NCBI GenBank assembly: GCA_035627515.1
Contig: DASPLQ010000012.1
Location: 1,199,705 to 1,263,704, forward strand
Origin: Vitreimonas sp.
Lineage (GTDB): Bacteria > Patescibacteriota > Microgenomatia > UBA1400 > PJMF01
Direction of reading: 5' to 3'
DNA: 64,000 nt
Positions 1,661 to 63,645 of the stretch are shown piece by piece (the stretch's first letter is position 1; each line of letters starts with the position of its first letter). The position numbers and the translations under genes were made by a program. The notes below the pieces were generated by a model that was given only the letters and a program-made list of their open reading frames with translations, did not search any database and was not told the origin of the DNA.

Positions 1661-3064
<1,404 letters not shown>

Positions 3065-4225: not shown

Positions 4226-6619
4226 ATGACAAATCAATCTTCTTCACCTGTTCTTCAAGCTCCTCATTGGGTCGATAATGTAGTGGAAAATATCTTAAGT
4301 TGGCAAAAAACTAACCAAGTTGCCAAGCTCCACGTCGACGACATGAAAACTCCTTCTGGCAGGGTGCATACTGGCGCACTGCGCGGAGTCGTCCTTCATG
4401 ATTTAGTTGCCAAAGCCTTAGCAAACAAAGCTCAAGGCGTGGTCAGTACCTATGTCTTTAATGATATGGACGTGATGGATGGTTTACCAACATATTTAAA
4501 TAAAGATATTTATGAACAGCACATGGGCAAACCGCTCTATAAAATTCCCGTGCCAGCTTTAGAAGAGTGTGGCATCGATTTGAGCACGGCTTCAGCTGAA
4601 GAAATTGCCGAGCTGCGATCGGCTAAAAATTTTGCTGAGTTATATGCTATGGATTTTGTGCATGCTTTTAGACGCTTGGGCTGCTCACAACGGCTGGTGT
4701 GGAGTCATGAGTTATATGAAGCGGGTGAAATGGATGAACAGATTCGGACAGCTTTAAACAGTGTGGAAATTGCCCGTAAGATTTATCAAGAAGTAGCTGA
4801 CTACAAATTACCTGAAAAATGGTATCCCTTTCAAGTCATTTGTGAGAACTGTGGCAAGATGGGCACCACTCTGGTCACCGACTGGGATGGCGAACAAGTA
4901 ACCTATGAATGCCAACCAGCTAAGGTCACCTGGGCAGTTGGTTGCGGACATACTAGTAAAACCTTACCTTTTGGGGGTAAGGGCAAGTTACTATGGAAAA
5001 TGGACTGGCCAGCTCACTGGACGAAACTTGGTATTACGATTGAGGGTGCGGGTAAAGATCATACTTCGGCAGGTGGCTCGCGTGATATGGCTAATGCTAT
5101 TGTCACACAAATCTTTGATCAGATAGTCCCCTTCGATATTCCTTACGAGTGGATTTTGATCCGTGGCGCTAAAATGAGCTCAAGTAAAGGCGTCGGCACA
5201 TCTGCCCGAGAGTTTGTGGAACTTTTTCCGCCCCAAATTGGCCGCTTCTTATTTGTGAATAAAGATTATAACCAGGTCATAGATTTTGATCCTAAAACCA
5301 TGGCTATTCCAGATCTTTACGATGCCTATGATGCTGGCGCGCGTATCTTCTGGAAACAAGAAGAAGGCGATCAGCGCTTAGCTCGATCTTTTGAGTTGTC
5401 ACAATTAGAGACACTCCCAGAACCACATTTCTTGCCGCGCTTTAGAGACGTAGCAGTGTGGATGCAACACCCTGAAATTGAGCTCGAAACAAAGTGTGCA
5501 GAAATAAAGGGTAGTCCTTTGAATCAATTAGAAAAAGCGGTCTTAAAAGAGCGCATTCAATACGCTAAAGTGTGGTTGAGCCGCTACGCTCCAGAAGAAT
5601 ACCAACTAACGCCATCTGCAGCAGTTCCTGCCGCGGCTAGTTCTCTGACTCAAGAGCAGAGACTTTATTTAAGTGAAGCGGAGAGATTAATTACTTCCCA
5701 AGCTTGGCAACCTCAAGATTTGCAGCAAGCTTTGTTTGAGTTGGCAAAAAGCTCCTTGGGAGCTCGGCCCGCTTTTGAAGCAATTTACTTAGCCTTTTTA
5801 GGCAAAAAAGCAGGACCTAGAGCAGCCTGGTTTTTATTAGCCATGGATCCCGAGTTTCGTAAACAGCGCATTGAACTCCTGAGTGGAAACCAACCTATTC
5901 AAACACAATTCAAGTTTCCGACTTTGAATAACTCTGCACACTTCAGCTTTCACCCCGACTTCGCTGCCAAATATCCCACTGCAAGTGTCGGCATTGCCAT
6001 TATTCGGGGCGTAACTATTACTAAGAGTTTACCGGAACTTGAACAACACAAGGCTGAATTTATTCAAGAAATCAGTGGCTTAACCACTGACGCAATTAAT
6101 CAATATCCTGAAATTCAGGCTTATCGTCGCATGTACAAGTCAATGGGCATTGATTGGCACTCCCGTCGTCCTAGTCCTGAAGCATTACTGAGACGCGTTA
6201 CCCAGGGAAAGGGACTCTACACGGTCAACACCTGTGTTGATGCCTACAATTTAGTGGTCATGAAACATCGAATTTCAGTTGGTGCGTTTGATTTGAGTCA
6301 AGTTCAGTTTCCCACACAATTAAGAATTGCAGAAGGTGGTGAACAAATCTTATTACTCGGTGACACAGAATCAACTACTCTTAAAACTGGTGAAGTAAGT
6401 TACTTCGACCAACAAGGACCTTATAACCTCGACTATAACTACCGTGATGCTCAGCGAACCATGGTGACAGAAAAAACAACTGATTTATTAATTAACATTG
6501 ATGGTATTGATGAAGCCGATCGGAGTAGAGTGGAAGAGAGTTTAGCTGAAACTATAGAAATTATTCAGCGCTACTGTGGTGGTGAAGTAGAAATGGCCGG
6601 CATCGTCACCGCAGACTAA
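4226..6619 (+). CDS. lysS: lysine--tRNA ligase, class I type, with about 240-aa C-terminal B3/4-like (PheT-type tRNA-binding/editing fold) extension
   Basis: 797 aa. Class-I LysRS signatures PSGRVHTGALRG and KMSSSKG. Residues from about 560 onward resemble the B3/4 domain (NTCVDAYNLVVMKHRISVGAFDLSQV). Confidence 0.8.
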   Translation: MTNQSSSPVLQAPHWVDNVVENILSWQKTNQVAKLHVDDMKTPSGRVHTGALRGVVLHDLVAKALANKAQGVVSTYVFNDMDVMDGLPTYLNKDIYEQHMGKPLYKIPVPALEECGIDLSTASAEEIAELRSAKNFAELYAMDFVHAFRRLGCSQRLVWSHELYEAGEMDEQIRTALNSVEIARKIYQEVADYKLPEKWYPFQVICENCGKMGTTLVTDWDGEQVTYECQPAKVTWAVGCGHTSKTLPFGGKGKLLWKMDWPAHWTKLGITIEGAGKDHTSAGGSRDMANAIVTQIFDQIVPFDIPYEWILIRGAKMSSSKGVGTSAREFVELFPPQIGRFLFVNKDYNQVIDFDPKTMAIPDLYDAYDAGARIFWKQEEGDQRLARSFELSQLETLPEPHFLPRFRDVAVWMQHPEIELETKCAEIKGSPLNQLEKAVLKERIQYAKVWLSRYAPEEYQLTPSAAVPAAASSLTQEQRLYLSEAERLITSQAWQPQDLQQALFELAKSSLGARPAFEAIYLAFLGKKAGPRAAWFLLAMDPEFRKQRIELLSGNQPIQTQFKFPTLNNSAHFSFHPDFAAKYPTASVGIAIIRGVTITKSLPELEQHKAEFIQEISGLTTDAINQYPEIQAYRRMYKSMGIDWHSRRPSPEALLRRVTQGKGLYTVNTCVDAYNLVVMKHRISVGAFDLSQVQFPTQLRIAEGGEQILLLGDTESTTLKTGEVSYFDQQGPYNLDYNYRDAQRTMVTEKTTDLLINIDGIDEADRSRVEESLAETIEIIQRYCGGEVEMAGIVTAD

Positions 6620-37518: not shown

Positions 37519-38931
37519 CTATAAGCGGTGCCATTTTTGTAAATGATGATCAATATTGCCATCAAAAAATTGACGCAAATAAACGTCTTTAGTTTGTCTT
37601 CCTAGAAGATAGGGGAGTTGACGAGAAGCCACATACATTCGGGGCATAAGATTGATGAAGATAGCCGCCGCGATTAACGTCAATAACGGGAGTTTCCAAG
37701 CCGGTTTTTTATCAAAAAGCAGTTTAATATACCAAAAGACACATATACCCAAAACAATAAAGCCTGACAACGCATAGCGAGTCGATAAAGGGGGCACAAA
37801 CCACCAAATGAGCCACTGAGCTAAACCAAAAATCCACAACGTGGTCAGTTTACGATCTGCCTTCCTTTGCCAGCAGTCATAGCCTGCTAGAGGCAAGGCC
37901 AGAAATAAAACTGACACATAATCACGACTAAAAAGTGTCAACTGTATCAAAGACCAAGGGAAAGAGATAATACGCTCACTCAGATAACTAACACCGCTAC
38001 TGCCACCACTAATCTCATCTAAACGGCCTAAATGCAGTAGAGCAGACAAAAAAGGTGTGCCGGCATACCAAAAGGTGTAAAGATAAAAAGGTGCAACCAC
38101 TAAGGCACTCGTTACCAAGAACACACATACCTTCTGCCACCGCTTAGTCATTAACCACACGAGGAGTAACATCACTGGCCACAACAACACTGAAAATAAT
38201 TTAGTCGCCAGTGAGGCCCCAAAAAATAAACCACTCCACATCGTGTGCTGATGTCTAGAACTCTGATGATCCACCGCTTGTAACAGCAACCACAAGCTCG
38301 CTACTTCCCACATCGCCTTTGCCACATCCACATAGAAACTACTTGCTTGCCACGTCATAACCTGATAGGTAGAGATGAAAAGCACAGTCGCTAAAGCCCA
38401 GTGACGAGGCAGCACATGGCGTGCCAATGCATAACTCACTGCCATACAACTCAACGCTAAACCATACGCCACTACTTTCGCTCCCATATCACCAGCAGCT
38501 TGATAGCCTAATAAAAACAACACATCGGAAAACAGAGGATTAAGTGATTGGTAATAATCAGGAAGGTATATGATGCGACCTAAAGTCAGGAACTGCTCCA
38601 CGATTGGCAAGTGATACCAAACAGCATCGAACCCGGTTTCCGGCATCAATACTCCCAAACCATGCATCAGCCATATGAGGCCAAACACAGTCACCATTAG
38701 TTTTTCAATTACCTTCAGACCAGAAAAGCTGATTACCACTTGCCAACCTAATCGCATGAGAAAAAAACTGGGAAAAAGTAAAATCAGGTAAAGTGGCAAA
38801 AACAAACCACCTGCCCACCCCACCAGTGTGGTAATCACAGCACAACTAAACCAACTGACCATTAACCAAAAAAGGTGCGTTTTATTTTTTTGCTCTGGTT
38901 TGGGAACTTGAAGCGGTTTCTTTAGTACCAT
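37519..38931 (-). CDS. GT39/GT83-like (PMT/ArnT-type) membrane glycosyltransferase family protein
   Basis: Multi-TM protein with ArnT/PMT-like topology. Start uncertain: ATG 38931 overlaps the RND gene 3' end; alternative ATG 38862; the track ORF begins at 38997. Confidence 0.4.
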   Translation of the reverse strand: MVLKKPLQVPKPEQKNKTHLFWLMVSWFSCAVITTLVGWAGGLFLPLYLILLFPSFFLMRLGWQVVISFSGLKVIEKLMVTVFGLIWLMHGLGVLMPETGFDAVWYHLPIVEQFLTLGRIIYLPDYYQSLNPLFSDVLFLLGYQAAGDMGAKVVAYGLALSCMAVSYALARHVLPRHWALATVLFISTYQVMTWQASSFYVDVAKAMWEVASLWLLLQAVDHQSSRHQHTMWSGLFFGASLATKLFSVLLWPVMLLLVWLMTKRWQKVCVFLVTSALVVAPFYLYTFWYAGTPFLSALLHLGRLDEISGGSSGVSYLSERIISFPWSLIQLTLFSRDYVSVLFLALPLAGYDCWQRKADRKLTTLWIFGLAQWLIWWFVPPLSTRYALSGFIVLGICVFWYIKLLFDKKPAWKLPLLTLIAAAIFINLMPRMYVASRQLPYLLGRQTKDVYLRQFFDGNIDHHLQKWHRL

Positions 38932-41900
38932 ACACCTCAATATACATGGCAGGCAACAAGAACAAAATAAGCAAGCCGGATACAGAAAGACCAGCAATAA
39001 TTGCCCCGCCTAGCCCTCTCCACAAAGGATCTGAAATCGTGACCGGCAACAACCCCACCACGGATGAAAAAGAACTCAGAAAAATAGCTTCTAACCGTGA
39101 GGATGAAGCATCCACGACCGCATCTTTAGTGCTAAAACCATACTCTAAGTTTAGGTTAATTTTCTCTGTCATCATCAGGGCATTGTTAACCACAATTCCA
39201 AATAGTGACAACACCCCAATTAAAGCCGGAAATGACAATGGGATTTGGAACAAGGTAAAGTTAATAGCCACCCCAATCAATGCTAACGGAATCACGATCA
39301 CTACTAAAATGGCTTTGCGAAATGATTTTAGCTGTAACACCATGGTCACTAAAATCATAAAAAATGAGATGCCCATCGCTTGGATAATTGATTGGACTGA
39401 TTTCTCATTTTCTTCATTAGCACCACCTACGTCCCAAGTATAACCAGCTGGCATATCATAGTCCTTCACTTTTTCTTGGAACTGGCGCAAGACTTCAGGA
39501 GAGGTTGTACCTTGAACATCAGCGGTAACTCTCACTACTCGTCGACCATCTTCGCGTTCGATCGAAAGAGGACTGTTTTCAAGTCGCAAAGTAGCCACTT
39601 CTGAAACTGTGTAGGACCCCAGAGCGCTCGGTAGGCTTAAATTAGTCAGCAGGTCGAGGTTCTGTGACGGTGTTTCTAATTGCAAGGTAATGTCACGATC
39701 TTCATTATCAATGATAGTATCAGTGGCTTCACTGCCAGAGAGAGCAGTCCGCAGCCATCCACCCACTTGTTGGGCACTCAAACCTCGCTCTGCCAACTCT
39801 TGAGGGTTGAGCTCGATGGTAATTTGGCCAGCGGATAATTTAAGTGAGTTATCAATATTAATAGTCCCCTGAATTTCACCTAACGTCTTTTGAAAATCTG
39901 CCGCAATCCTTTCCAATTCCTCTAATGACTCACCTTTCAAATTAACCTGAAAAGCTGAGCCCGCCGGCGGACCACCACTCAGTTCAACTACCGTAATTTT
40001 TGCTTCTCTGACTTCATTTAACATGGATCGCAACTCAGCGGTGATCGCTAATGAGTCACGGCCACGATCTTCTAACTCGGGCAATAAAACGGTCATCATC
40101 GCCAAATTACTACTACCACCTCCACCACCAAAGCTATTTAAAAAATTACTGCCCGTTGAACTTTGAATTGATTTAACTTCTGGCAACTGCAACACTATCG
40201 CTTCTACTTTTTCCAATACTTGTTCAGTCTCAGTGACTGTCCAACCGGCTGGCCCTTCGATGTTAATATAGAAGGTCTTGTTATCAGTCTTAGGGAAAAA
40301 CTCGGTTTTTAATAAACCAGTAAAAGCAAAGACTAAACTTACCACTAATAAAGCTGCAACTAACGCGAATACGGCCAATCGCCAGCGTCGGTAATCAACT
40401 ATTTTTGTGACACCACGGCGGTAGGCCTTGATCATTGGGTCTAGCGTCACTAAACTATTTTCTAATAAGCCTCTTTGTTTCACCCATAGCCAAGTGCGAT
40501 GCATAGCAGATGACCGGTTTCCTACCCGGTTAAATCCCGTCCGCACCACTGCTATCACTTTCTGACGAGCGATAAATAGCGCACAGATAAACAGTAAATA
40601 AACTAAAATCACCGGGATAGCTAATAACGAAGTACTCACCACGCTCCAGACAAACAGTAATGATAACAGTAACCCAAGGATCATCAGTAAAGCTTTCACC
40701 CGAGCCGGGATATGAGCTCCACGTAAGACAATGTTTAAAGGTAGGTTTAGCAAGGTCGCAATCGCGGTGGAAGATAACAATGTGGCTGTGACCACCAGTG
40801 GAATGGGTTTAATGAACTCGCCAATAATTCCGCTTGCTAACAACAGCGGCACAAATGACCACACCACCGTGATCGTGCCCACCCAAATGGGAATAAAAAA
40901 GTCTCTAAATACCATTAAACCAGTTTCAATTGAATTAAATTTTCGACCATAAGCCGTGGTCGATTGAGCCATCACAATGGCATCATCACCAATTAAACTC
41001 AACGCTAACAAGAGGGAAAACAACGATAAAAAGTTGAGAGATAAACCCATGATGTTCATGGCCACAAAAGTGCACATAATGACTAAGGGAATTGATAATG
41101 CTGCCACAGTGGCTTGGCGCAAACCGAGGAAAATCGTCAATACTAAAAACATCAAGCCAATGGAATTGACAAAGTTGCGTTGTAAATCCGCAAAGGTCCG
41201 GGTAATTTCTTCAGTAAAATTTAAGATGTCCACAGCTTTAACTTGTGGATATTTTTGGAGCGTTTCGTTAATGACTTGACGGGATTTTTGTTCAGCCGCA
41301 GTGATAGTTTCGTTTTCAGCTTTGAAAATAGCTACCTGAACTGCGTTTTGTCGAGAATTATTTTTTTCAGTATAACTTTGGAAACGTGTAATTTCTTTGG
41401 TTCGCAAATAGACTTGCGCCACTTGGCCAAGCTGAATCGTTTTCCCTTCCACTATGAGCGGTAAGGTCCGAATCTTGTCGAGACTGTCTAACTCACTATT
41501 GAGTGATAAGGTGTACTCTAGGCCGCCAATAGTAACATTGCCAGTGGGAAAGGTCAGATTATTGCCGCGAAGGGCTTGGGCGACTGCTTGCTCAGAGAGG
41601 TGGTAGGTTCGTAAACTACTTGGATCCAATGCCACGACTACTTCTTCTTCCTCAGCCCCAATTAAATCAGCACGACGAATGCCATTGACTTGTTCTAACT
41701 CATCCTTCAGTTCATCAGCCACCCGAGAAATAGTATATAAATCAACTTCACCGGTCAAAGCGATGGTTAAAAAGGGTTGGTCATTGACGTTAATTTTTTC
41801 CACCCGAGGTTCTGTTGCATCATCGGGAAGATCATCAATCAGCAAATCAATTTCTTCTTTAGTGGAACGGACGGCTTCTTCAGGATCCATTGAGCTCAAA

Positions 41901-42271
41901 AATTGAAACGTGACTACAGACACCCCTTGGGTGGAGCTGGAAACCACGTTATCTAAGTTGGGTAAATTTGGGGCAGCTTTTTCTAATTTCTGAGTTACTA
42001 ACTGCTCCACGTCACGAGGTGAAGCACCTGGTAAAGTAGTGATCACATTGACCGCCGGCAACACCACATCGGGATTTAATTCTCTGGGTAACTGCGCAAA
42101 GGAATACAAACCAAAGACCACAATGCCAATCATCATCAAAATTAACAAGCGTGGGTTGCGAAATAAAACTTCGATCCATTTCCCGCGCAGACTTTCATCA
42201 AAACGAAGTTTTTTAAGATACTCGGACTCAGCATCAATTTGAGGAGGTGGGGAAGATTTAGACTTAGCCAT
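38882..42271 (-). CDS. RND family efflux transporter permease (AcrB/HAE1-like)
   Basis: 1129 aa, 12-TM RND architecture with two large periplasmic loops. N-terminus RNPRLLILMMIGIVVFGLYSF. Confidence 0.85.
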   Translation of the reverse strand: MAKSKSSPPPQIDAESEYLKKLRFDESLRGKWIEVLFRNPRLLILMMIGIVVFGLYSFAQLPRELNPDVVLPAVNVITTLPGASPRDVEQLVTQKLEKAAPNLPNLDNVVSSSTQGVSVVTFQFLSSMDPEEAVRSTKEEIDLLIDDLPDDATEPRVEKINVNDQPFLTIALTGEVDLYTISRVADELKDELEQVNGIRRADLIGAEEEEVVVALDPSSLRTYHLSEQAVAQALRGNNLTFPTGNVTIGGLEYTLSLNSELDSLDKIRTLPLIVEGKTIQLGQVAQVYLRTKEITRFQSYTEKNNSRQNAVQVAIFKAENETITAAEQKSRQVINETLQKYPQVKAVDILNFTEEITRTFADLQRNFVNSIGLMFLVLTIFLGLRQATVAALSIPLVIMCTFVAMNIMGLSLNFLSLFSLLLALSLIGDDAIVMAQSTTAYGRKFNSIETGLMVFRDFFIPIWVGTITVVWSFVPLLLASGIIGEFIKPIPLVVTATLLSSTAIATLLNLPLNIVLRGAHIPARVKALLMILGLLLSLLFVWSVVSTSLLAIPVILVYLLFICALFIARQKVIAVVRTGFNRVGNRSSAMHRTWLWVKQRGLLENSLVTLDPMIKAYRRGVTKIVDYRRWRLAVFALVAALLVVSLVFAFTGLLKTEFFPKTDNKTFYINIEGPAGWTVTETEQVLEKVEAIVLQLPEVKSIQSSTGSNFLNSFGGGGGSSNLAMMTVLLPELEDRGRDSLAITAELRSMLNEVREAKITVVELSGGPPAGSAFQVNLKGESLEELERIAADFQKTLGEIQGTINIDNSLKLSAGQITIELNPQELAERGLSAQQVGGWLRTALSGSEATDTIIDNEDRDITLQLETPSQNLDLLTNLSLPSALGSYTVSEVATLRLENSPLSIEREDGRRVVRVTADVQGTTSPEVLRQFQEKVKDYDMPAGYTWDVGGANEENEKSVQSIIQAMGISFFMILVTMVLQLKSFRKAILVVIVIPLALIGVAINFTLFQIPLSFPALIGVLSLFGIVVNNALMMTEKINLNLEYGFSTKDAVVDASSSRLEAIFLSSFSSVVGLLPVTISDPLWRGLGGAIIAGLSVSGLLILFLLPAMYIEVYGTKETASSSQTRAKK

Positions 42272-42276
42272 GCTGA

Positions 42277-43722
42277 TTATCCTAATTCTTGGACACTCCG
42301 CACTGGAGTGCTCTGGATGACTGGCTCTACAGCTTCACCTTCTAAAACTCGACGATCCAAAATCACAATATCATTGGGGAGCGGACCGGTTTTAATTTCC
42401 ACGGTACTACCCACGATCTCACCAGTTTCAATCACTTTTTTGACTGCACGACCATTTTCCGCCACCAGCACATAACTACCATTATTGGTTACAAAAATGG
42501 CATCTAAGGGTAAGAAAGAGTTGCCCTCAATTAAGGTTTGAGTATAAAGAGGCAGCGTCACTGCCACGGCTGATTCTTCGGGAATAAACTCTTGATACTC
42601 CGCTGGAAGAACTGCCAACACTTCAAATAACTGCCCATTGATGGGGGTAGAGGAAACATGGGTAATGGGGACAACAAACTCACGATCATTCAGGACAACT
42701 ATTAAGTCTTGTTGAGCATCTATGCGGCTAGCTACTGCCCCTGCTACCGAAATTTGCAGACTGAGATTGGCATCACCTTTAATCTTAGCTACAGGTGTCC
42801 CTGGTGTGACATACTGGCCAGGATTGACATATACTTTCTCAATTGTCCCTGAAAAAGGTGCCACCACCCGGGTAGATGCCTCATTAATTTTAGCCAACTG
42901 TAAGCTCAAAGCTGAAACCTCTTGATTAATTTGGGCTTGCTTGAGCTGCAGTTCAGTCGTTTTGTAAACTAAGTCTTTGGTAATATCAGCAATTTTAGTA
43001 GGCGGATTGCCAGTTGCTACTGCATACTCGGCTGATCGCAGCCCCGAACGATTTGAGTTTTGAATTCCCCGATAGGTTATCAAAGATTGGCGCAAAGATT
43101 GAATGGTAGTGGCGTTATTAGTACTAGCTTGTTCGGTAGCAATATCACTTTCAATTTTACTAATCACTTGATCAGTAGTAGTCAGTATACTTTTAATCTC
43201 ATCAATTGATTTCTCAGTGATTTTGCGCAGCTCTTCAGTATTATCACGATTTTTATCGGCTAACTCACGATTTTTTGATACCACCTCCACAGTGTTCTTA
43301 AGAGTTTCTTGAGCTAGTTCATAATTTTTACCCGCAATTTGGCGTTGAACGGTAGCGGCGCTGCCAGCGCCATAGGCAGAGGTTTGATTAAGGAGTAACG
43401 TTCCTTTTTTGACTGTTTTTCCTTCAGCAACTTTCACTTGTCCCACCGGACCTGCCGTTTGTGCCACTAACGTAATTGAACTCAAATTTTTAACCGTGCC
43501 CACGGCCTGTTCAGAAATTTCTGTTGATCCAAATCGTAAGGCATTGACCTTGCGAGGGGGAACTTCAGAAGTGGTAACAACCGGCTCAGGCTTTTGAAAG
43601 TAACGCGCTAAAACTAAGCCTTGAGCAAAAACAATTGCTAAGACTACTACAATTACTAATCCAAACCGATGGAAAAAAGACGTTAGAGCAGCTCTCATTT
43701 TCTTCATAAAACCAATCAACAC
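42277..43722 (-). CDS. efflux RND periplasmic adaptor (membrane fusion protein, HlyD family)
   Basis: 481 aa. N-terminal TM, long coiled coil, biotinyl/lipoyl-like and beta-barrel segments (VAPFSGTIEKVYVNPGQYV). Confidence 0.75.
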   Translation of the reverse strand: MLIGFMKKMRAALTSFFHRFGLVIVVVLAIVFAQGLVLARYFQKPEPVVTTSEVPPRKVNALRFGSTEISEQAVGTVKNLSSITLVAQTAGPVGQVKVAEGKTVKKGTLLLNQTSAYGAGSAATVQRQIAGKNYELAQETLKNTVEVVSKNRELADKNRDNTEELRKITEKSIDEIKSILTTTDQVISKIESDIATEQASTNNATTIQSLRQSLITYRGIQNSNRSGLRSAEYAVATGNPPTKIADITKDLVYKTTELQLKQAQINQEVSALSLQLAKINEASTRVVAPFSGTIEKVYVNPGQYVTPGTPVAKIKGDANLSLQISVAGAVASRIDAQQDLIVVLNDREFVVPITHVSSTPINGQLFEVLAVLPAEYQEFIPEESAVAVTLPLYTQTLIEGNSFLPLDAIFVTNNGSYVLVAENGRAVKKVIETGEIVGSTVEIKTGPLPNDIVILDRRVLEGEAVEPVIQSTPVRSVQELG

Positions 43723-61333: not shown

Positions 61334-61792
61334 TTATTTTTTCACGTCTCTCATTCCGTAATGCAGAGCTTTTTTAATTTCGCTTCTCGTCACGACGCCT
61401 AACAACTTTCCGTCATTGATGACCGGCACGATATATAAATCATTTTTTAAGAAATCTGCAGTTACCGCCATAATATTATCGTCAAGGTCCACGGCTACAA
61501 ACTCTTTGCGCATCACGGTGCTAATTGGTTGATCTTTTAGCTGCTGACACATCTCAGTAAAAAAACCTGGCTTATACATAGCTGCTGCCATACGGATATT
61601 TTTGCGAAATTGCCTGGGCACAGTTGCGGCAGCAATATCTTGAAGTGATAAAATTCCCACCACCTTTTTATTTTTATCAATAATTACTAACGCGTTTACT
61701 TCGTCTTTGAGTAATTCTTCGACCGCCTCATCAATAGTAGCTGTGGCTACCATAGTTTTGGGTCGGGGGTGGTAAATTTCGGAAATGAGCAT
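61334..61792 (-). CDS. CBS-pair domain protein
   Basis: 152 aa with two CBS motifs (VVGILSLQDIAAA; LLGVVTRSEIKKA). Confidence 0.65.
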   Translation of the reverse strand: MLISEIYHPRPKTMVATATIDEAVEELLKDEVNALVIIDKNKKVVGILSLQDIAAATVPRQFRKNIRMAAAMYKPGFFTEMCQQLKDQPISTVMRKEFVAVDLDDNIMAVTADFLKNDLYIVPVINDGKLLGVVTRSEIKKALHYGMRDVKK

Positions 61793-61832: not shown

Positions 61833-62324
61833 TTAGTCATTCAGCCATTCCACATATGTACAACCCGTCGGCTGGCGGAACTCGCGGTCCCACCCGGCTG
61901 TGGAACATTTCTTCATCTTTTTACCTTTGTTAGTGGTAAATAAGACCAGTTTTTCACCACATTGCGGACACTCTTCATCCAGTTGTTCAGTAGTATTACT
62001 CAGCCACTCCACATAATCACAACCCGTAGCCACCATATTTTCTCGGTCCCAACCACCAGTACTACATTTTTTCATTTTCTTTCCGGTGCGGGTGACTTGA
62101 AGTTGCAGTGGCGAACCACATTTAGGACACTTCTCATCTAAGGTTTGTGGTTCATCTTTGAGCCATTTTACGTAGGTACAGCCTTCCACCTGATGTGTCT
62201 CACTATTCCAGGAGCCTTTAGAACACCGCTGGAGCTTTTTACCAGTTTTAGTTTCTTCAGGTGGGTTGAGGGGAGCGCCACATTGTGGACAAAGGTCTGT
62301 AAGTGAAGGTGAAGAATTTGACAT
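61833..62324 (-). CDS. tandem triple zinc-ribbon protein (three C-x2-C...C...GC modules)
   Basis: 163 aa. Three about 50-aa repeats CP(Q/K)CG..L...TGKK(L/M)(Q/K)(R/K)CS.G.W......GC.YV(K/E)WL, each with 4 Cys. Confidence 0.5.
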   Translation of the reverse strand: MSNSSPSLTDLCPQCGAPLNPPEETKTGKKLQRCSKGSWNSETHQVEGCTYVKWLKDEPQTLDEKCPKCGSPLQLQVTRTGKKMKKCSTGGWDRENMVATGCDYVEWLSNTTEQLDEECPQCGEKLVLFTTNKGKKMKKCSTAGWDREFRQPTGCTYVEWLND

Positions 62325-62370
62325 AGCAAGTTAGTGTAAACCTCTTGCGCGCATTTGATAAGATACAGTC

Positions 62371-63645
62371 ATGAAATGGCGAGAAATAATTAACAAAGAG
62401 GAACCAGATAAGGCACCCCAAGATTTTAGTGATTTGGTAAAGTTAAGGTTTGCCAAGAATGAGCCTGTCTTGATCACTGGAGCTAATTTTCCCAACCTTG
62501 TCACACAAAAGCCTGAACTCAAAAGCTCTAGAGACAACCGGCATTTTGCTTACATGTTTGAAACAGAAACAATTCGCTGGAAAAGTATTCTTAGTCTCCC
62601 ACTTGAGAAAGTTAGTTATAGCGAGTTGGTAACTCATCAAAATGTGCTTTACTACCCCTCACAAGAAACTGTTACATTAGCCGGTGAGGATTTACAGCAC
62701 ATTCAAACAGCGAGCTCTCAAGAACGACTGATAGCCAAACAACTTTTTCCTCTTACTAAACATCCTGATTTAAACTTTCCTTCTCCTACTCAAACTACCC
62801 AAGACGGCGTTAACATTGCCTTGAGCTTAAAGTGTGTGCTTGATCTCATGACCAATCGCTATGCTTCTGCTGAGGAACTCATCTCACATTTATTGGAACT
62901 CAACTGTGATATTAGTCTCTTAATTGATAGCTTAAGCTTTATTGTCGCTGAGAAAAAAATTCCTGAATGGCAATCAAGTAGCTCTCATCTGGAACTTCAA
63001 AATTCCCTATCTGAATTTTATGAAGTGGCTGCCGAACTACTGTTGATGTGTGCGCAAGTTTCTTTAACTTTACATAACAAGCCCGGAAAGTTACCCGCCA
63101 CTTTTCCCTATGTACAACGGTATTATGAATCCACATACCCCTCTCTAGAGTTCATTCCGTATATACTTTTTAATCACTTGTTATTCTTAATTGAATTACC
63201 AGGTTTAATTAAAGAAAATAATGAGTTTGAGTGGATTAATATAATTAACTCTACCAAAAAATTAATGGGGGAAAGTGATGCGAGCGAAGATAATTTGGTT
63301 TTCGATGTTGTCCTACTGAAATTACAACAAGAACACCACGTTTATACTAATAGAGAAGTCATGACCCTTTTCCAACACGCAAATGACAAACTTAAAAAAC
63401 AAATTTCTGACCTAGTAGAGTACACTCAATTAGTGAGAAGCCTTTGTATGCGTGTGATTTCCTTTTATTCTAGAAACATGTATCTGCTCAATAAAACAAA
63501 GCAAACCGAAATGCAAGTCCAACAAGCATTATCACACCCTGAATATGCTTTAATGAGGCAAGAAATACTTGATTCTGGCGGTAGAGCTCCACTCAAAGGA
63601 CTACGCATTAAATATCGTCATAGGACGAAGGGTAATAAGATTTAG
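62371..63645 (+). CDS. hypothetical protein
   Basis: 424 aa ORF, divergent from the zinc-ribbon gene. No recognisable motifs. Confidence 0.4.
   Translation: MKWREIINKEEPDKAPQDFSDLVKLRFAKNEPVLITGANFPNLVTQKPELKSSRDNRHFAYMFETETIRWKSILSLPLEKVSYSELVTHQNVLYYPSQETVTLAGEDLQHIQTASSQERLIAKQLFPLTKHPDLNFPSPTQTTQDGVNIALSLKCVLDLMTNRYASAEELISHLLELNCDISLLIDSLSFIVAEKKIPEWQSSSSHLELQNSLSEFYEVAAELLLMCAQVSLTLHNKPGKLPATFPYVQRYYESTYPSLEFIPYILFNHLLFLIELPGLIKENNEFEWINIINSTKKLMGESDASEDNLVFDVVLLKLQQEHHVYTNREVMTLFQHANDKLKKQISDLVEYTQLVRSLCMRVISFYSRNMYLLNKTKQTEMQVQQALSHPEYALMRQEILDSGGRAPLKGLRIKYRHRTKGNKI

What the first reader, a model, noticed from the sequence alone, without database searches (positions are those of the whole stretch)
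61833..62324. 163-aa protein made of three tandem four-cysteine zinc-ribbon modules
The sequence is three consecutive about 50-aa repeats: CPQCGAPL...TGKKLQRCSKGSW...GCTYVKWL, CPKCGSPLQL...TGKKMKKCSTGGW...GCDYVEWL and CPQCGEKLVL...KGKKMKKCSTAGW...GCTYVEWL. The four Cys are spaced C-x2-C-x17-C-x14-C. The K-C-S-x-G-W signature is reminiscent of, but spaced differently from, the C-terminal Zn-ribbons of topoisomerase I. A free-standing array of three such ribbons with conserved Trp/Tyr and Lys-rich loops suggests a nucleic-acid-binding protein. It is divergently transcribed from a 424-aa hypothetical gene.
Basis: seen in the sequence. Interest (0 to 1): 0.5.

Follow-up and report, generated by a model that had tools for sequence, protein, structure and literature searches.

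The report
Free-standing triple topoisomerase-type zinc ribbon protein
This small gene encodes three tandem copies of the zinc-binding, single-stranded-DNA-gripping module normally found at the tail of topoisomerase I, as a stand-alone protein that is unusually well conserved across one class of ultra-small (CPR/Patescibacteria) bacteria but whose cellular job is still unknown.

Summary
ORF 61833-62324 (-) encodes 163 aa made of three ~53-aa modules, each with four invariant Cys (CxxC-x17/18-C-x14-C).

The modules are a long-insert variant of the topoisomerase IA C-terminal zinc ribbon:
- Pfam PF01396 scores exactly at its threshold.
- The same module sits at the C-terminus of real type IA topoisomerases, and on ERF and Rad52-type single-strand annealing proteins.

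The protein is not a gene fragment. More than 2,000 full-length homologues of 152-198 aa exist, almost all in Microgenomates-class CPR genomes. They are 65-85% identical, which beats 98% of neighbouring orthologues. There is no conserved gene neighbourhood.

Most homologues carry an acidic GEEFLPPE tail; the window protein does not.

Best reading: a stand-alone ssDNA-binding accessory protein analogous to E. coli YrdD (COG0551), which is how JGI already labels its relatives.

The split-topA idea has no support (no linkage in 167 loci), but I could not test it directly. Canonical SSB coexists with the family, so this protein does not replace SSB.

It is a lineage-specific variant of a known kind, of modest interest.

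The parts
61833..62324 (-). Complete CDS (stop included) of a 163-aa protein made of three zinc-ribbon modules
   Evidence: ORF listing and translation. There are 2,071 homologues with E<=1e-3, and the best 120 are 152-198 aa and 68-85% identical. AF2 mean pLDDT is 83.
62160..62306 (-). Module 1 (residues 7-55): C12, C15, C34, C49; CxxC-x18-C-x14-C; G28-K-K-L-Q-R-C34, W39, Y51, W54
   Evidence: (invariant C12 C15 G28 C34 W39 G48 C49 W54).
62001..62147 (-). Module 2 (residues 60-108): C66, C69, C87, C102; CxxC-x17-C-x14-C; G81-K-K-M-K-K-C87, W92, Y104, W107
61842..61988 (-). Module 3 (residues 113-161): C119, C122, C140, C155; CxxC-x17-C-x14-C; G134-K-K-M-K-K-C140, W145, Y157, W160. The protein ends 2 residues later, without the acidic tail seen in most homologues.
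   Evidence: Tail census: 73 of 82 family members have a tail of 15 aa or more, and the window protein has 3 residues after the last motif.
62325..62370 (.). 46-nt divergent intergenic spacer between this gene and the 424-aa ORF
   Evidence: The consensus scan finds no sigma-70-like site in the spacer. No conserved upstream k-mer or LexA-like box appears in 148 distinct upstream regions of homologues.

Best explanation
The gene encodes a stand-alone, three-zinc protein built from three tandem copies of a long-insert variant of the type IA topoisomerase C-terminal zinc ribbon.

Predicted fold of each module: the four invariant Cys sit on two knuckles (CPxCG, and C...GC) and hold one Zn(II) on top of a small antiparallel beta-sheet. 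A 14-residue insert between Cys3 and Cys4 adds an extra beta-hairpin.

Inferred mechanism, by homology with E. coli TopA domains D5-D7 and with YrdD:
- The array binds single-stranded DNA non-specifically, roughly 3 nt per module.
- Bases stack on the invariant aromatic residues (Trp at +5 of Cys3, and the C-x-Tyr-Val-x-Trp last strand).
- Phosphates are held by the Lys-rich beta2-beta3 hairpin (G-K-K-M-K-K-C).

In Microgenomates-class CPR bacteria it would act as a housekeeping ssDNA-binding accessory factor in replication, repair or transcription-coupled topology. It works alongside, not instead of, canonical SSB.

In most orthologues an acidic GEEFLPPE tail would recruit a partner or mask the basic face. 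The window protein lacks that tail.

Shown: gene, repeats, invariant Cys, predicted fold, homology to topoisomerase ribbons, lineage distribution, strong purifying selection. Inferred: zinc binding, ssDNA binding and cellular role.
For: Domain and fold:
- PF01396 Zn_ribbon_Top1 scores 32.0 bits (cut-off 32) for the window protein and 41.2 bits for the cluster representative P0121. PF01396 is precomputed on nearly all of the 120 best homologues, and JGI names them 'ssDNA-binding Zn-finger/Zn-ribbon topoisomerase 1'.
- Foldseek with the full-length model puts E. coli Topo I first and second (E 4e-3 and 1e-2).

Same module in other proteins:
- It forms the C-terminus of Toprim+Topoisom_bac proteins P0141 (45% identity to residues 59-163), P0148 (followed by a canonical ribbon), P0188 and P0214.
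- It forms the C-terminus of ERF (P0158) and Rad52-like (P0162) annealing proteins.

Similarity to known ssDNA binders:
- blastp to E. coli YrdD gives E 1.5e-5. YrdD is reported to bind ssDNA in a Zn-dependent way, and TopA ribbons bind ssDNA by pi-stacking (PMC4678816).

Conservation:
- All 12 Cys and the module Trp and Gly are invariant.
- The protein is more conserved than 98% of neighbouring orthologues between the same genome pairs.
- The family forms one single 50%-identity cluster.

Not an SSB replacement: canonical SSB is present in three related loci.
Against: - No experiment on any member of this family was found.
- The aromatic residue at -3 of Cys3, which is the centre of ssDNA stacking in E. 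coli TopA D5/D7, is Leu or Met in all three modules here.
- The protein is not basic overall: pI is 7.4, and 5.1 for a tail-bearing relative.
- Gene neighbourhood gives no functional support. The 143 immediate neighbours hit 113 different Pfam families.
- The Foldseek E-values for the full-length model are weak.
- Zinc-ribbon folds also serve RNA binding and protein-protein contacts.
Confidence: 0.55

Rival explanations
1. Split topoisomerase I. In these CPR bacteria TopA has lost its own C-terminal ribbons, and this protein supplies them in trans, docking on the TopA core to hold the passing or ssDNA strand.
For: - The module is the same type that forms the C-terminal domain of real type IA topoisomerases (P0141, P0148, P0188, P0214).
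- Conservation comparable to core enzymes (65-85%, against 82-89% for AtpD) would fit an obligate subunit of an essential enzyme.
- Among the topoisomerase-length hits carrying this module, none came from a standard-code genome.
Against: - No topA lies within the window or 166 related loci (1.7 Mb). Split genes usually stay adjacent in at least some lineages. About 1.7 chance co-occurrences were expected, so this is only weak evidence.
- In E. coli, free-standing YrdD coexists with a TopA that has all its ribbons (PMC4678816).
- The acidic tail and the three-module architecture are not those of the topoisomerase-borne copies, which have one or two modules.
Confidence: 0.12
2. RNA-binding or translation-associated factor. 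The ribbons bind rRNA, tRNA or mRNA, for example as a lineage-specific ribosome-associated protein in a group known to lack some ribosomal proteins.
For: - Very high conservation with no operon context.
- The Lys-rich hairpins.
- Many zinc-ribbon proteins are ribosomal or RNA-binding. Weak Pfam and NCBIfam matches include Nop10, S27a and Elf1, all below their thresholds.
- A few neighbours are Dus, RrnaAD or GTPases, at most 5 of 143.
Against: - pI of 7.4 (5.1 with the tail) is unlike ribosomal proteins.
- The closest fold and sequence relatives are DNA enzymes: topoisomerase IA, ERF, Rad52-like and YrdD.
- None of the RNA-related matches reaches its family threshold.
Confidence: 0.1
3. Protein-protein adaptor. 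Like the TopA C-terminal ribbons that contact RNA polymerase, the array mainly docks on a protein partner (RNAP, helicase or primase) and DNA binding is secondary. The acidic tail is a second docking motif.
For: - The canonical stacking aromatic is lost.
- A conserved GEEFLPPE tail is present in 73 of 82 members.
Against: - The tail is absent in the window protein and its nearest relatives, so it is not essential to the core function.
- The tail motif occurs in no other protein in ~0.9 Mb of related DNA.
- No partner is suggested by neighbourhood.
Confidence: 0.12
4. Remnant of a disrupted larger gene, such as a degraded topA 3' end.
For: The domain type is normally the C-terminal part of a larger enzyme.
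Against: - More than 2,000 homologues have the same length and ends (152-198 aa).
- Complete unrelated ORFs abut both sides: a CBS-domain gene 40 nt downstream and a divergent 424-aa ORF 46 nt upstream.
- There is no Toprim or Topoisom_bac similarity anywhere in the window.
- The gene is under strong purifying selection.
Confidence: 0.01

Closest known systems
[quoted passage not shown]
   Same: - A small free-standing protein (180 aa) made only of tandem Topo-I-type 4-Cys ribbons.
- Detectable sequence similarity: blastp E 1.5e-5, 32% over 72 aa.
- YrdD is reported to bind ssDNA in a Zn-dependent way (PMC4678816).
- JGI gives homologues of the window protein this COG name.
   Different: - YrdD has four canonical short ribbons (C-x2-C-x~17-C-x5-C, G-[RK]-x-G-x-[FY]-x-x-C). 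The window protein has three long-insert ribbons (C3-x14-C4, G-K-K-M-K-K-C, C-x-Y-V-x-W).
- They are not orthologues. YrdD sits in smf-smg-yrdD-tsaC, whereas this family has no fixed context.
- This family is restricted to Microgenomates-class CPR bacteria, and most members have an acidic tail.
Topo_C_ZnRpt / Zn_ribbon_Top1 (PF01396) domains D5-D7 of E. coli topoisomerase I
   Same: - CxxC first knuckle, beta1 strand present, and Zn site formed by two knuckles on a small antiparallel sheet.
- The Pfam score reaches the gathering cut-off.
- The same variant module is found fused to topoisomerase IA cores.
   Different: - Not attached to a topoisomerase.
- Cys3-Cys4 spacing is 14 residues with an extra hairpin.
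- Only profile positions 1-20 of 39 align.
- The stacking aromatic at -3 of Cys3 is Met or Leu, and the second aromatic is shifted from +3 to +5 (PMC9369019).
Eukaryotic zf-GRF (PF06839; APE2, NEIL3, TOP3A) and Pfam 'GRF-like zinc ribbon' PF23549
   Same: - A G-basic-x-hydrophobic-x-x-Cys3 beta3 strand with the same G-to-Cys spacing.
- A long Cys3-Cys4 loop.
- A C-x-[FY]-[FV]-x-W aromatic last strand.
- zf-GRF domains bind ssDNA and also occur on type IA topoisomerases (PMC9369019).
   Different: - The first knuckle is CxxC, not CxC.
- The Phe of GRxF is Met or Leu.
- A beta1 strand is present.
- PF23549 scores 25.8 bits, below its cut-off of 27.
Bacterial SSB (OB-fold with an acidic C-terminal tip)
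   Same: In most orthologues the overall layout is the same: ssDNA-binding modules followed by a short linker and an acidic tail containing an aromatic/Pro motif. Some tails end in ...EDIF.
   Different: - There is no OB fold.
- Canonical SSB with a normal ...MPF or ...DLPF tip is present in the same lineage.
- The window protein has no tail.

Membership tests
Zn_ribbon_Top1 / Topo_C_ZnRpt (PF01396) | Profile HMM score at or above Pfam's gathering cut-off | tested here: met
   The score is 32.0 bits against a cut-off of 32. That is borderline, and the best stretch covers only profile positions 1-20 of 39. The cluster representative P0121 scores 41.2 bits. PF01396 is precomputed on nearly all of the 120 best homologues.
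Zn_ribbon_Top1 / Topo_C_ZnRpt (PF01396) | Four Zn-ligand Cys, with the first pair as C-x2-C | tested here: met
   CPQC, CPKC and CPQC. All 12 Cys are invariant in 42 sequences. Metal content itself was not measured.
Zn_ribbon_Top1 / Topo_C_ZnRpt (PF01396) | Small antiparallel beta-sheet ribbon fold superposable on TopA D5-D7 | tested here: met
Zn_ribbon_Top1 / Topo_C_ZnRpt (PF01396) | Aromatic residue just before Cys3 on beta3 (F616/Y728 in EcTopA), the centre of ssDNA pi-stacking | tested here: not met
   The position is L31, M84 and M137 in the window protein, nearly invariant in the family. In the wider module family it is M21/F21/Y13/L9 of 81. The feature is defined in PMC4678816 and PMC9369019.
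Zn_ribbon_Top1 / Topo_C_ZnRpt (PF01396) | Second aromatic shortly after Cys3 (C-S-x-Y-P-x-C) with a short Cys3-Cys4 loop | tested here: inconclusive
   An invariant Trp lies at +5 rather than +3, and the loop is 14 residues with an extra hairpin.
Zn_ribbon_Top1 / Topo_C_ZnRpt (PF01396) | Located C-terminal to a Toprim + Topoisom_bac catalytic core | tested here: not met
   The protein is free-standing, and there is no topoisomerase core in the window or in 166 related loci. The same module does occur in that position in P0141, P0148, P0188 and P0214.
YrdD-like free-standing ribbon proteins (COG0551) | Whole protein consists of tandem Topo-type ribbons with no other domain | tested here: met
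   Three modules cover residues 7-161 of 163. JGI applies the COG0551 name to homologues.
YrdD-like free-standing ribbon proteins (COG0551) | Orthology with E. coli YrdD (full-length similarity and shared context smf-smg-yrdD-tsaC) | tested here: not met
   Only local similarity: 32% over 72 aa, E 1.5e-5. YrdD has four ribbons against three here. The context differs and is not conserved.
YrdD-like free-standing ribbon proteins (COG0551) | Zn-dependent ssDNA binding | not testable with these tools
   This needs purified protein. It has been reported for YrdD only (PMC4678816).
zf-GRF (PF06839) / GRF-like ribbon (PF23549) | Profile score above the cut-off | tested here: not met
zf-GRF (PF06839) / GRF-like ribbon (PF23549) | C-x1-C first knuckle and a GRxF motif on beta3 | tested here: not met
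   The first knuckle is C-x2-C, and the motif is G-K-K-[LM]. The features are defined in PMC9369019.
zf-GRF (PF06839) / GRF-like ribbon (PF23549) | Aromatic cluster on the last strand (C-x-F-F-x-W) | tested here: met
   C-T-Y-V-K-W, C-D-Y-V-E-W and C-T-Y-V-E-W. The Trp is invariant.
Bacterial SSB | OB-fold ssDNA-binding domain (PF00436) | tested here: not met
   No PF00436 match. The fold is a zinc ribbon. True SSB genes are present in related loci L017, L054 and L116.

The most novel reading that the evidence does not exclude
The protein is an obligate, class-wide trans-acting partner of DNA-strand-passage machinery in Microgenomates. One version is a detached C-terminal domain of a topoisomerase I that has lost its own ribbons (a naturally split TopA). 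A broader version is a zinc-ribbon-based, SSB-like ssDNA hub whose acidic GEEFLPPE tail recruits replication or repair enzymes. Either would explain why a 160-aa ribbon array is conserved at the level of core enzymes across an entire CPR class.
Probability: 0.12. Interest if true: 0.6.

Novelty: new variant of a known kind. Interest (0 to 1): 0.32.

Why it matters
CPR/Patescibacteria have tiny genomes in which almost every strongly conserved gene is expected to be essential. This protein is conserved at 65-85% identity across the Microgenomates class, has no experimental characterisation, and carries only an automatic COG label.

It defines a clear sub-type of topoisomerase-type zinc ribbon (C-x2-C-x17-C-x14-C, Trp at +5, C-x-Y-V-x-W) that bridges bacterial Topo_C_ZnRpt and eukaryotic zf-GRF motifs. 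The same sub-type recurs on topoisomerases and on phage single-strand annealing proteins.

If it proves to be a detached TopA domain or an SSB-like hub, it would say something new about DNA transactions in these organisms. If it is simply a YrdD-like accessory ssDNA binder, it is an ordinary, if well conserved, member of a known class.

Tried and rejected
1. Split-topA test. I looked for topA by tblastn, using E. coli TopA and four other TopA cores as queries, in the window, 86 genome or assembly loci and 80 metagenome loci (1.7 Mb in all). None was found. About 1.7 were expected by chance, so this says little.

2. Gene-neighbourhood inference.
   - Clustering all ORFs of 80 loci gave no real neighbour in more than 10 of 80 loci. 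The two largest clusters were antisense ORFs inside the gene itself.
   - A Pfam census of 143 immediate neighbours gave 113 families, the largest being Dus at 5.

3. Regulatory motif. There is no enriched upstream k-mer or LexA-type box in 148 distinct upstream regions, and the promoter scan of the window spacer was at background.

4. SSB-replacement idea. Rejected, because canonical rpsF-ssb-rpsR with normal tips occurs in related loci.

5. Shared docking motif. The GEEFLPPE-type tail motif occurs in no other ORF of ~0.9 Mb of related DNA.

6. Cyanobacterial origin or HGT into a non-CPR host.
   - There is only 1 HIP1 site.
   - The window's AtpD is 100% identical to a protein on a 1.41-Mb contig, and 82-89% identical to Patescibacteria and Woesebacteria proteins that sit on the same ~1-Mb contigs as ZnR homologues.
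   - So the window is a CPR genome and the gene is native.

7. Phage origin. There is no tblastn hit in 50,697 GenBank phages, and no significant BFVD structural match.

8. Sequence search of the PDB gave only non-significant hits. NCBIfam gave no family above its cut-off.

9. Exact-sequence look-ups of the window protein and of its 424-aa neighbour found nothing on record.

Full report
**1. The observation.**
The ORF is present exactly as described: 61833..62324 on the minus strand, ATG start, 163 aa. Translation places Cys at 12/15/34/49, 66/69/87/102 and 119/122/140/155. The spacing is CxxC-x18-C-x14-C in module 1 and CxxC-x17-C-x14-C in modules 2 and 3.

The three ~49-aa cores align with scores of 120-180, against a shuffled mean of 24 (sd ~5). 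That is z = 21-32, with 47-65% identity. At the DNA level the modules are only 41-61% identical, so the triplication is old.

The ORF is flanked by complete, unrelated ORFs. A CBS-domain gene (61334..61792, -) lies 40 nt downstream. A divergent 424-aa ORF with no Pfam or NCBIfam family lies 46 nt upstream.

**2. It is a real, conserved gene and not a fragment.**
A search of 5.8 billion proteins found 2,071 relatives with E<=1e-3. The best 120 are all 152-198 aa, 68-85% identical, and cover at least 92% of the query. In an alignment of 42 of them, all 12 Cys and the Gly and Trp of each module are invariant.

In the 50%-identity representative library (1.84 billion proteins) the whole family collapses into one full-length cluster (P0121) plus fragments. 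Only 182 proteins reach E<=1e-3. So this is a tight family with no close outgroup.

**3. Whose gene is it?**
- In one-genome-per-species GTDB contigs, at least 365 stretches encode a relative. The 80 best are almost all named Collier-, Gottesman-, Shapiro-, Davies-, Roizman-, Woese-, Levyi- or Chisholmbacteria, Microgenomates, or Patescibacteria group. Some third-party assemblies carry implausible labels such as 'uncultured Pseudomonadales'.
- The window's AtpD is 100% identical to a protein on a 1,409,795-bp NCBI contig. It is 82-89% identical to proteins named Patescibacteria or Woesebacteria. Several of these sit on the same ~1.0-1.2-Mb contigs that carry ZnR homologues; for example the 1,122,199-bp contig holds both P0001 and P0275.
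- The window has only one HIP1 site and a compact set of housekeeping genes.

I conclude that the window is a Microgenomates-class CPR genome and the gene is native to it.

**4. How conserved is it?**
Between the same pairs of genomes, the protein is more conserved than 98% of the other orthologues found in the flanking DNA. Where it is 65-75% identical, the neighbours have a median of 41-45%. Its conservation approaches that of AtpD.

**5. What the module is.**

*Sequence.* PF01396 (Zn_ribbon_Top1) scores 32.0 bits, exactly at the gathering cut-off. Only the first half of the model aligns. PF23549 (GRF-like ribbon) scores 25.8, below its cut-off of 27. Everything else is generic zinc-ribbon noise. 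blastp to E. coli YrdD gives E 1.5e-5, and to the E. coli TopA C-terminal domain E 0.002.

*Structure.* AF2 gives pLDDT 83 for the full chain but pTM 0.48, consistent with independently folded modules. Module 2 alone gives pLDDT 82. Each module has six short beta-strands.
- Foldseek with the full model also ranks E. coli Topo I first and second, though weakly.

*Domain context elsewhere.* The same module forms the C-terminus of bona fide Toprim+Topoisom_bac proteins:
- P0141 (769 aa, two modules, 45% identical to residues 59-163);
- P0148 (678 aa, one such module followed by a canonical C-S-S-Y-P-K-C ribbon);
- P0188 and P0214.

These come from contigs whose standard-code translation does not reproduce the recorded protein, which suggests organisms with an alternative genetic code.

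The module also ends ERF-family (P0158) and Rad52-like (P0162) single-strand annealing proteins, and many short proteins that fall in unannotated PHROG families.

Across 118 modules extracted from the 150 representative hits, the x17/18 and x14 spacings hold in 105. The consensus is C-P-k-C-g-x2-L-v-x2-t-t-k-x-G-k-k-x2-K-C-s-t-x-k-W-d-x2-t-k-x-a-x-G-C-d-y-v-x-W.

*Comparison with the literature definitions* (PMC4678816; PMC9369019). The module keeps the Topo_C_ZnRpt CxxC knuckle and beta1 strand. It has the long Cys3-Cys4 loop, the G-basic-x-hydrophobic beta3 strand and the C-x-[YF]-[VF]-x-W last strand typical of zf-GRF.
- The aromatic at -3 of Cys3, which stacks on ssDNA bases in E. coli TopA, is Leu or Met here. 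In the wider module family it is F or Y in 34 of 81 modules.
- An aromatic at +5 (Trp or Tyr) is universal.

**6. Context and regulation give no lead.**
- No real neighbour is shared by more than 10 of 80 loci; that group is a Collierbacteria sub-clade.
- The 143 immediate neighbours hit 113 Pfam families, with a maximum of 5.
- No upstream motif is enriched.
- No topA occurs in the window or in 166 loci.

**7. The tail.**
73 of 82 family members have a C-terminal extension of 15 residues or more, and 50-51 contain G-E-E-F-L-P-P-E. Some end in ...EDIF. The window protein and its closest relatives lack the tail.

The motif occurs in no other ORF of ~0.9 Mb of related DNA. Canonical SSB genes (rpsF-ssb-rpsR, with tips ...GEMPF and ...DDLPF) are present in related loci. 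So the protein is not an SSB replacement.

**8. Interpretation.**
The best-supported reading is a stand-alone ssDNA-binding accessory protein made of three topoisomerase-type zinc ribbons, analogous to (but not orthologous with) E. coli YrdD. I put this at about 0.55.

Fold, homology, distribution and selection are shown. Zinc binding, ssDNA binding and the cellular role are inferred.

Points against:
- the canonical stacking aromatic is lost;
- the pI is near neutral or acidic (7.4, and 5.1 with the tail);
- there is no contextual support.

Rivals are a trans-acting TopA C-terminal domain (0.12), an RNA or ribosome factor (0.10), a protein-docking adaptor (0.12) and a gene remnant (0.01).

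**9. Novelty.**
The domain class and the idea of a free-standing ribbon protein are known: YrdD/COG0551, the label JGI already gives to homologues. I found no paper on this family.

What is new is the defined long-insert sub-type, the three-module architecture with an acidic tail, the restriction to one CPR class, and the unusually strong conservation. I rate it a new variant of a known kind, with interest about 0.3.

Noticed in passing
Homologues in L003-L080 (C-termini of the ZnR ORFs), e.g. L009, L011, L018, L073: 73 of 82 family members carry an acidic C-terminal tail with a conserved G-E-E-F-L-P-P-E motif, and some end in ...EDIF. The layout resembles the SSB C-terminal tip. The window protein lacks the tail, and the motif occurs in no other ORF of ~0.9 Mb of related DNA.
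   Followed up: partly
P0141/L089, P0188, P0148/L090, P0214/L091: These type IA topoisomerases carry the same long-insert ribbon at their C-terminus. Their loci do not translate to the recorded protein under the standard code, and the recorded sequences have Trp where Gly is expected (e.g. 'WIWRPSTY'). This suggests genomes or phages with a recoded stop codon. L089 has RusA next to the topoisomerase and L091 has SSB next to it.
   Followed up: partly
P0158, P0162 and other ~100-230-aa hits: The same ribbon sub-type is fused to the C-terminus of ERF and Rad52-like single-strand annealing proteins, and of many short proteins in unannotated PHROG families (phrog_13226, phrog_21557). P0158 ends in ...DETPDF, like an SSB tip.
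   Followed up: partly
window 4226-6619 (+): A 797-aa protein combines a class I lysyl-tRNA synthetase domain (PF01921) with a C-terminal B3/4 domain (PF03483), which is normally part of the PheRS beta subunit. This is an unusual fusion.
   Followed up: no
window 38882-43722 (-): An AcrB-family RND transporter (1129 aa) lies next to an HlyD-type membrane-fusion protein (481 aa). Such efflux machinery is usually associated with double-membrane bacteria and is unexpected in a ~1.4-Mb CPR genome.
   Followed up: no
window 1673-3064 (+): The window's AtpD is 100% identical to a protein on a 1,409,795-bp NCBI third-party MAG contig labelled 'Vitreimonas sp.' (an alphaproteobacterium). All other close hits are Patescibacteria, so the label looks wrong. 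Many third-party MAGs are similarly labelled 'uncultured Pseudomonadales/Gammaproteobacteria'.
   Followed up: partly
window 61962-62421, both strands; clusters 1 and 2: Overlapping ORFs of 53-68 aa lie within or beside the zinc-ribbon gene. In other genomes, ORFs antisense to the gene form 'conserved' clusters of 13-16 loci. They are conserved only because the sense gene is, so they are artefacts and not genes.
   Followed up: yes
window 62371-63645 (+): The divergent 424-aa ORF has no Pfam or NCBIfam family, no homologue in any of the 86 loci compared, and no exact record in the protein collection. It appears to be a lineage-specific orphan.
   Followed up: partly
L088 (E. coli NC_000913.3 3431420-3433560) versus L092: E. 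coli yrdD lies in smf(dprA)-smg-yrdD-tsaC, while in a Firmicute-like contig topA directly follows dprA. YrdD therefore sits close to where topA sits relative to dprA in the other contig, hinting that YrdD may derive from a topA 3' end.
   Followed up: no
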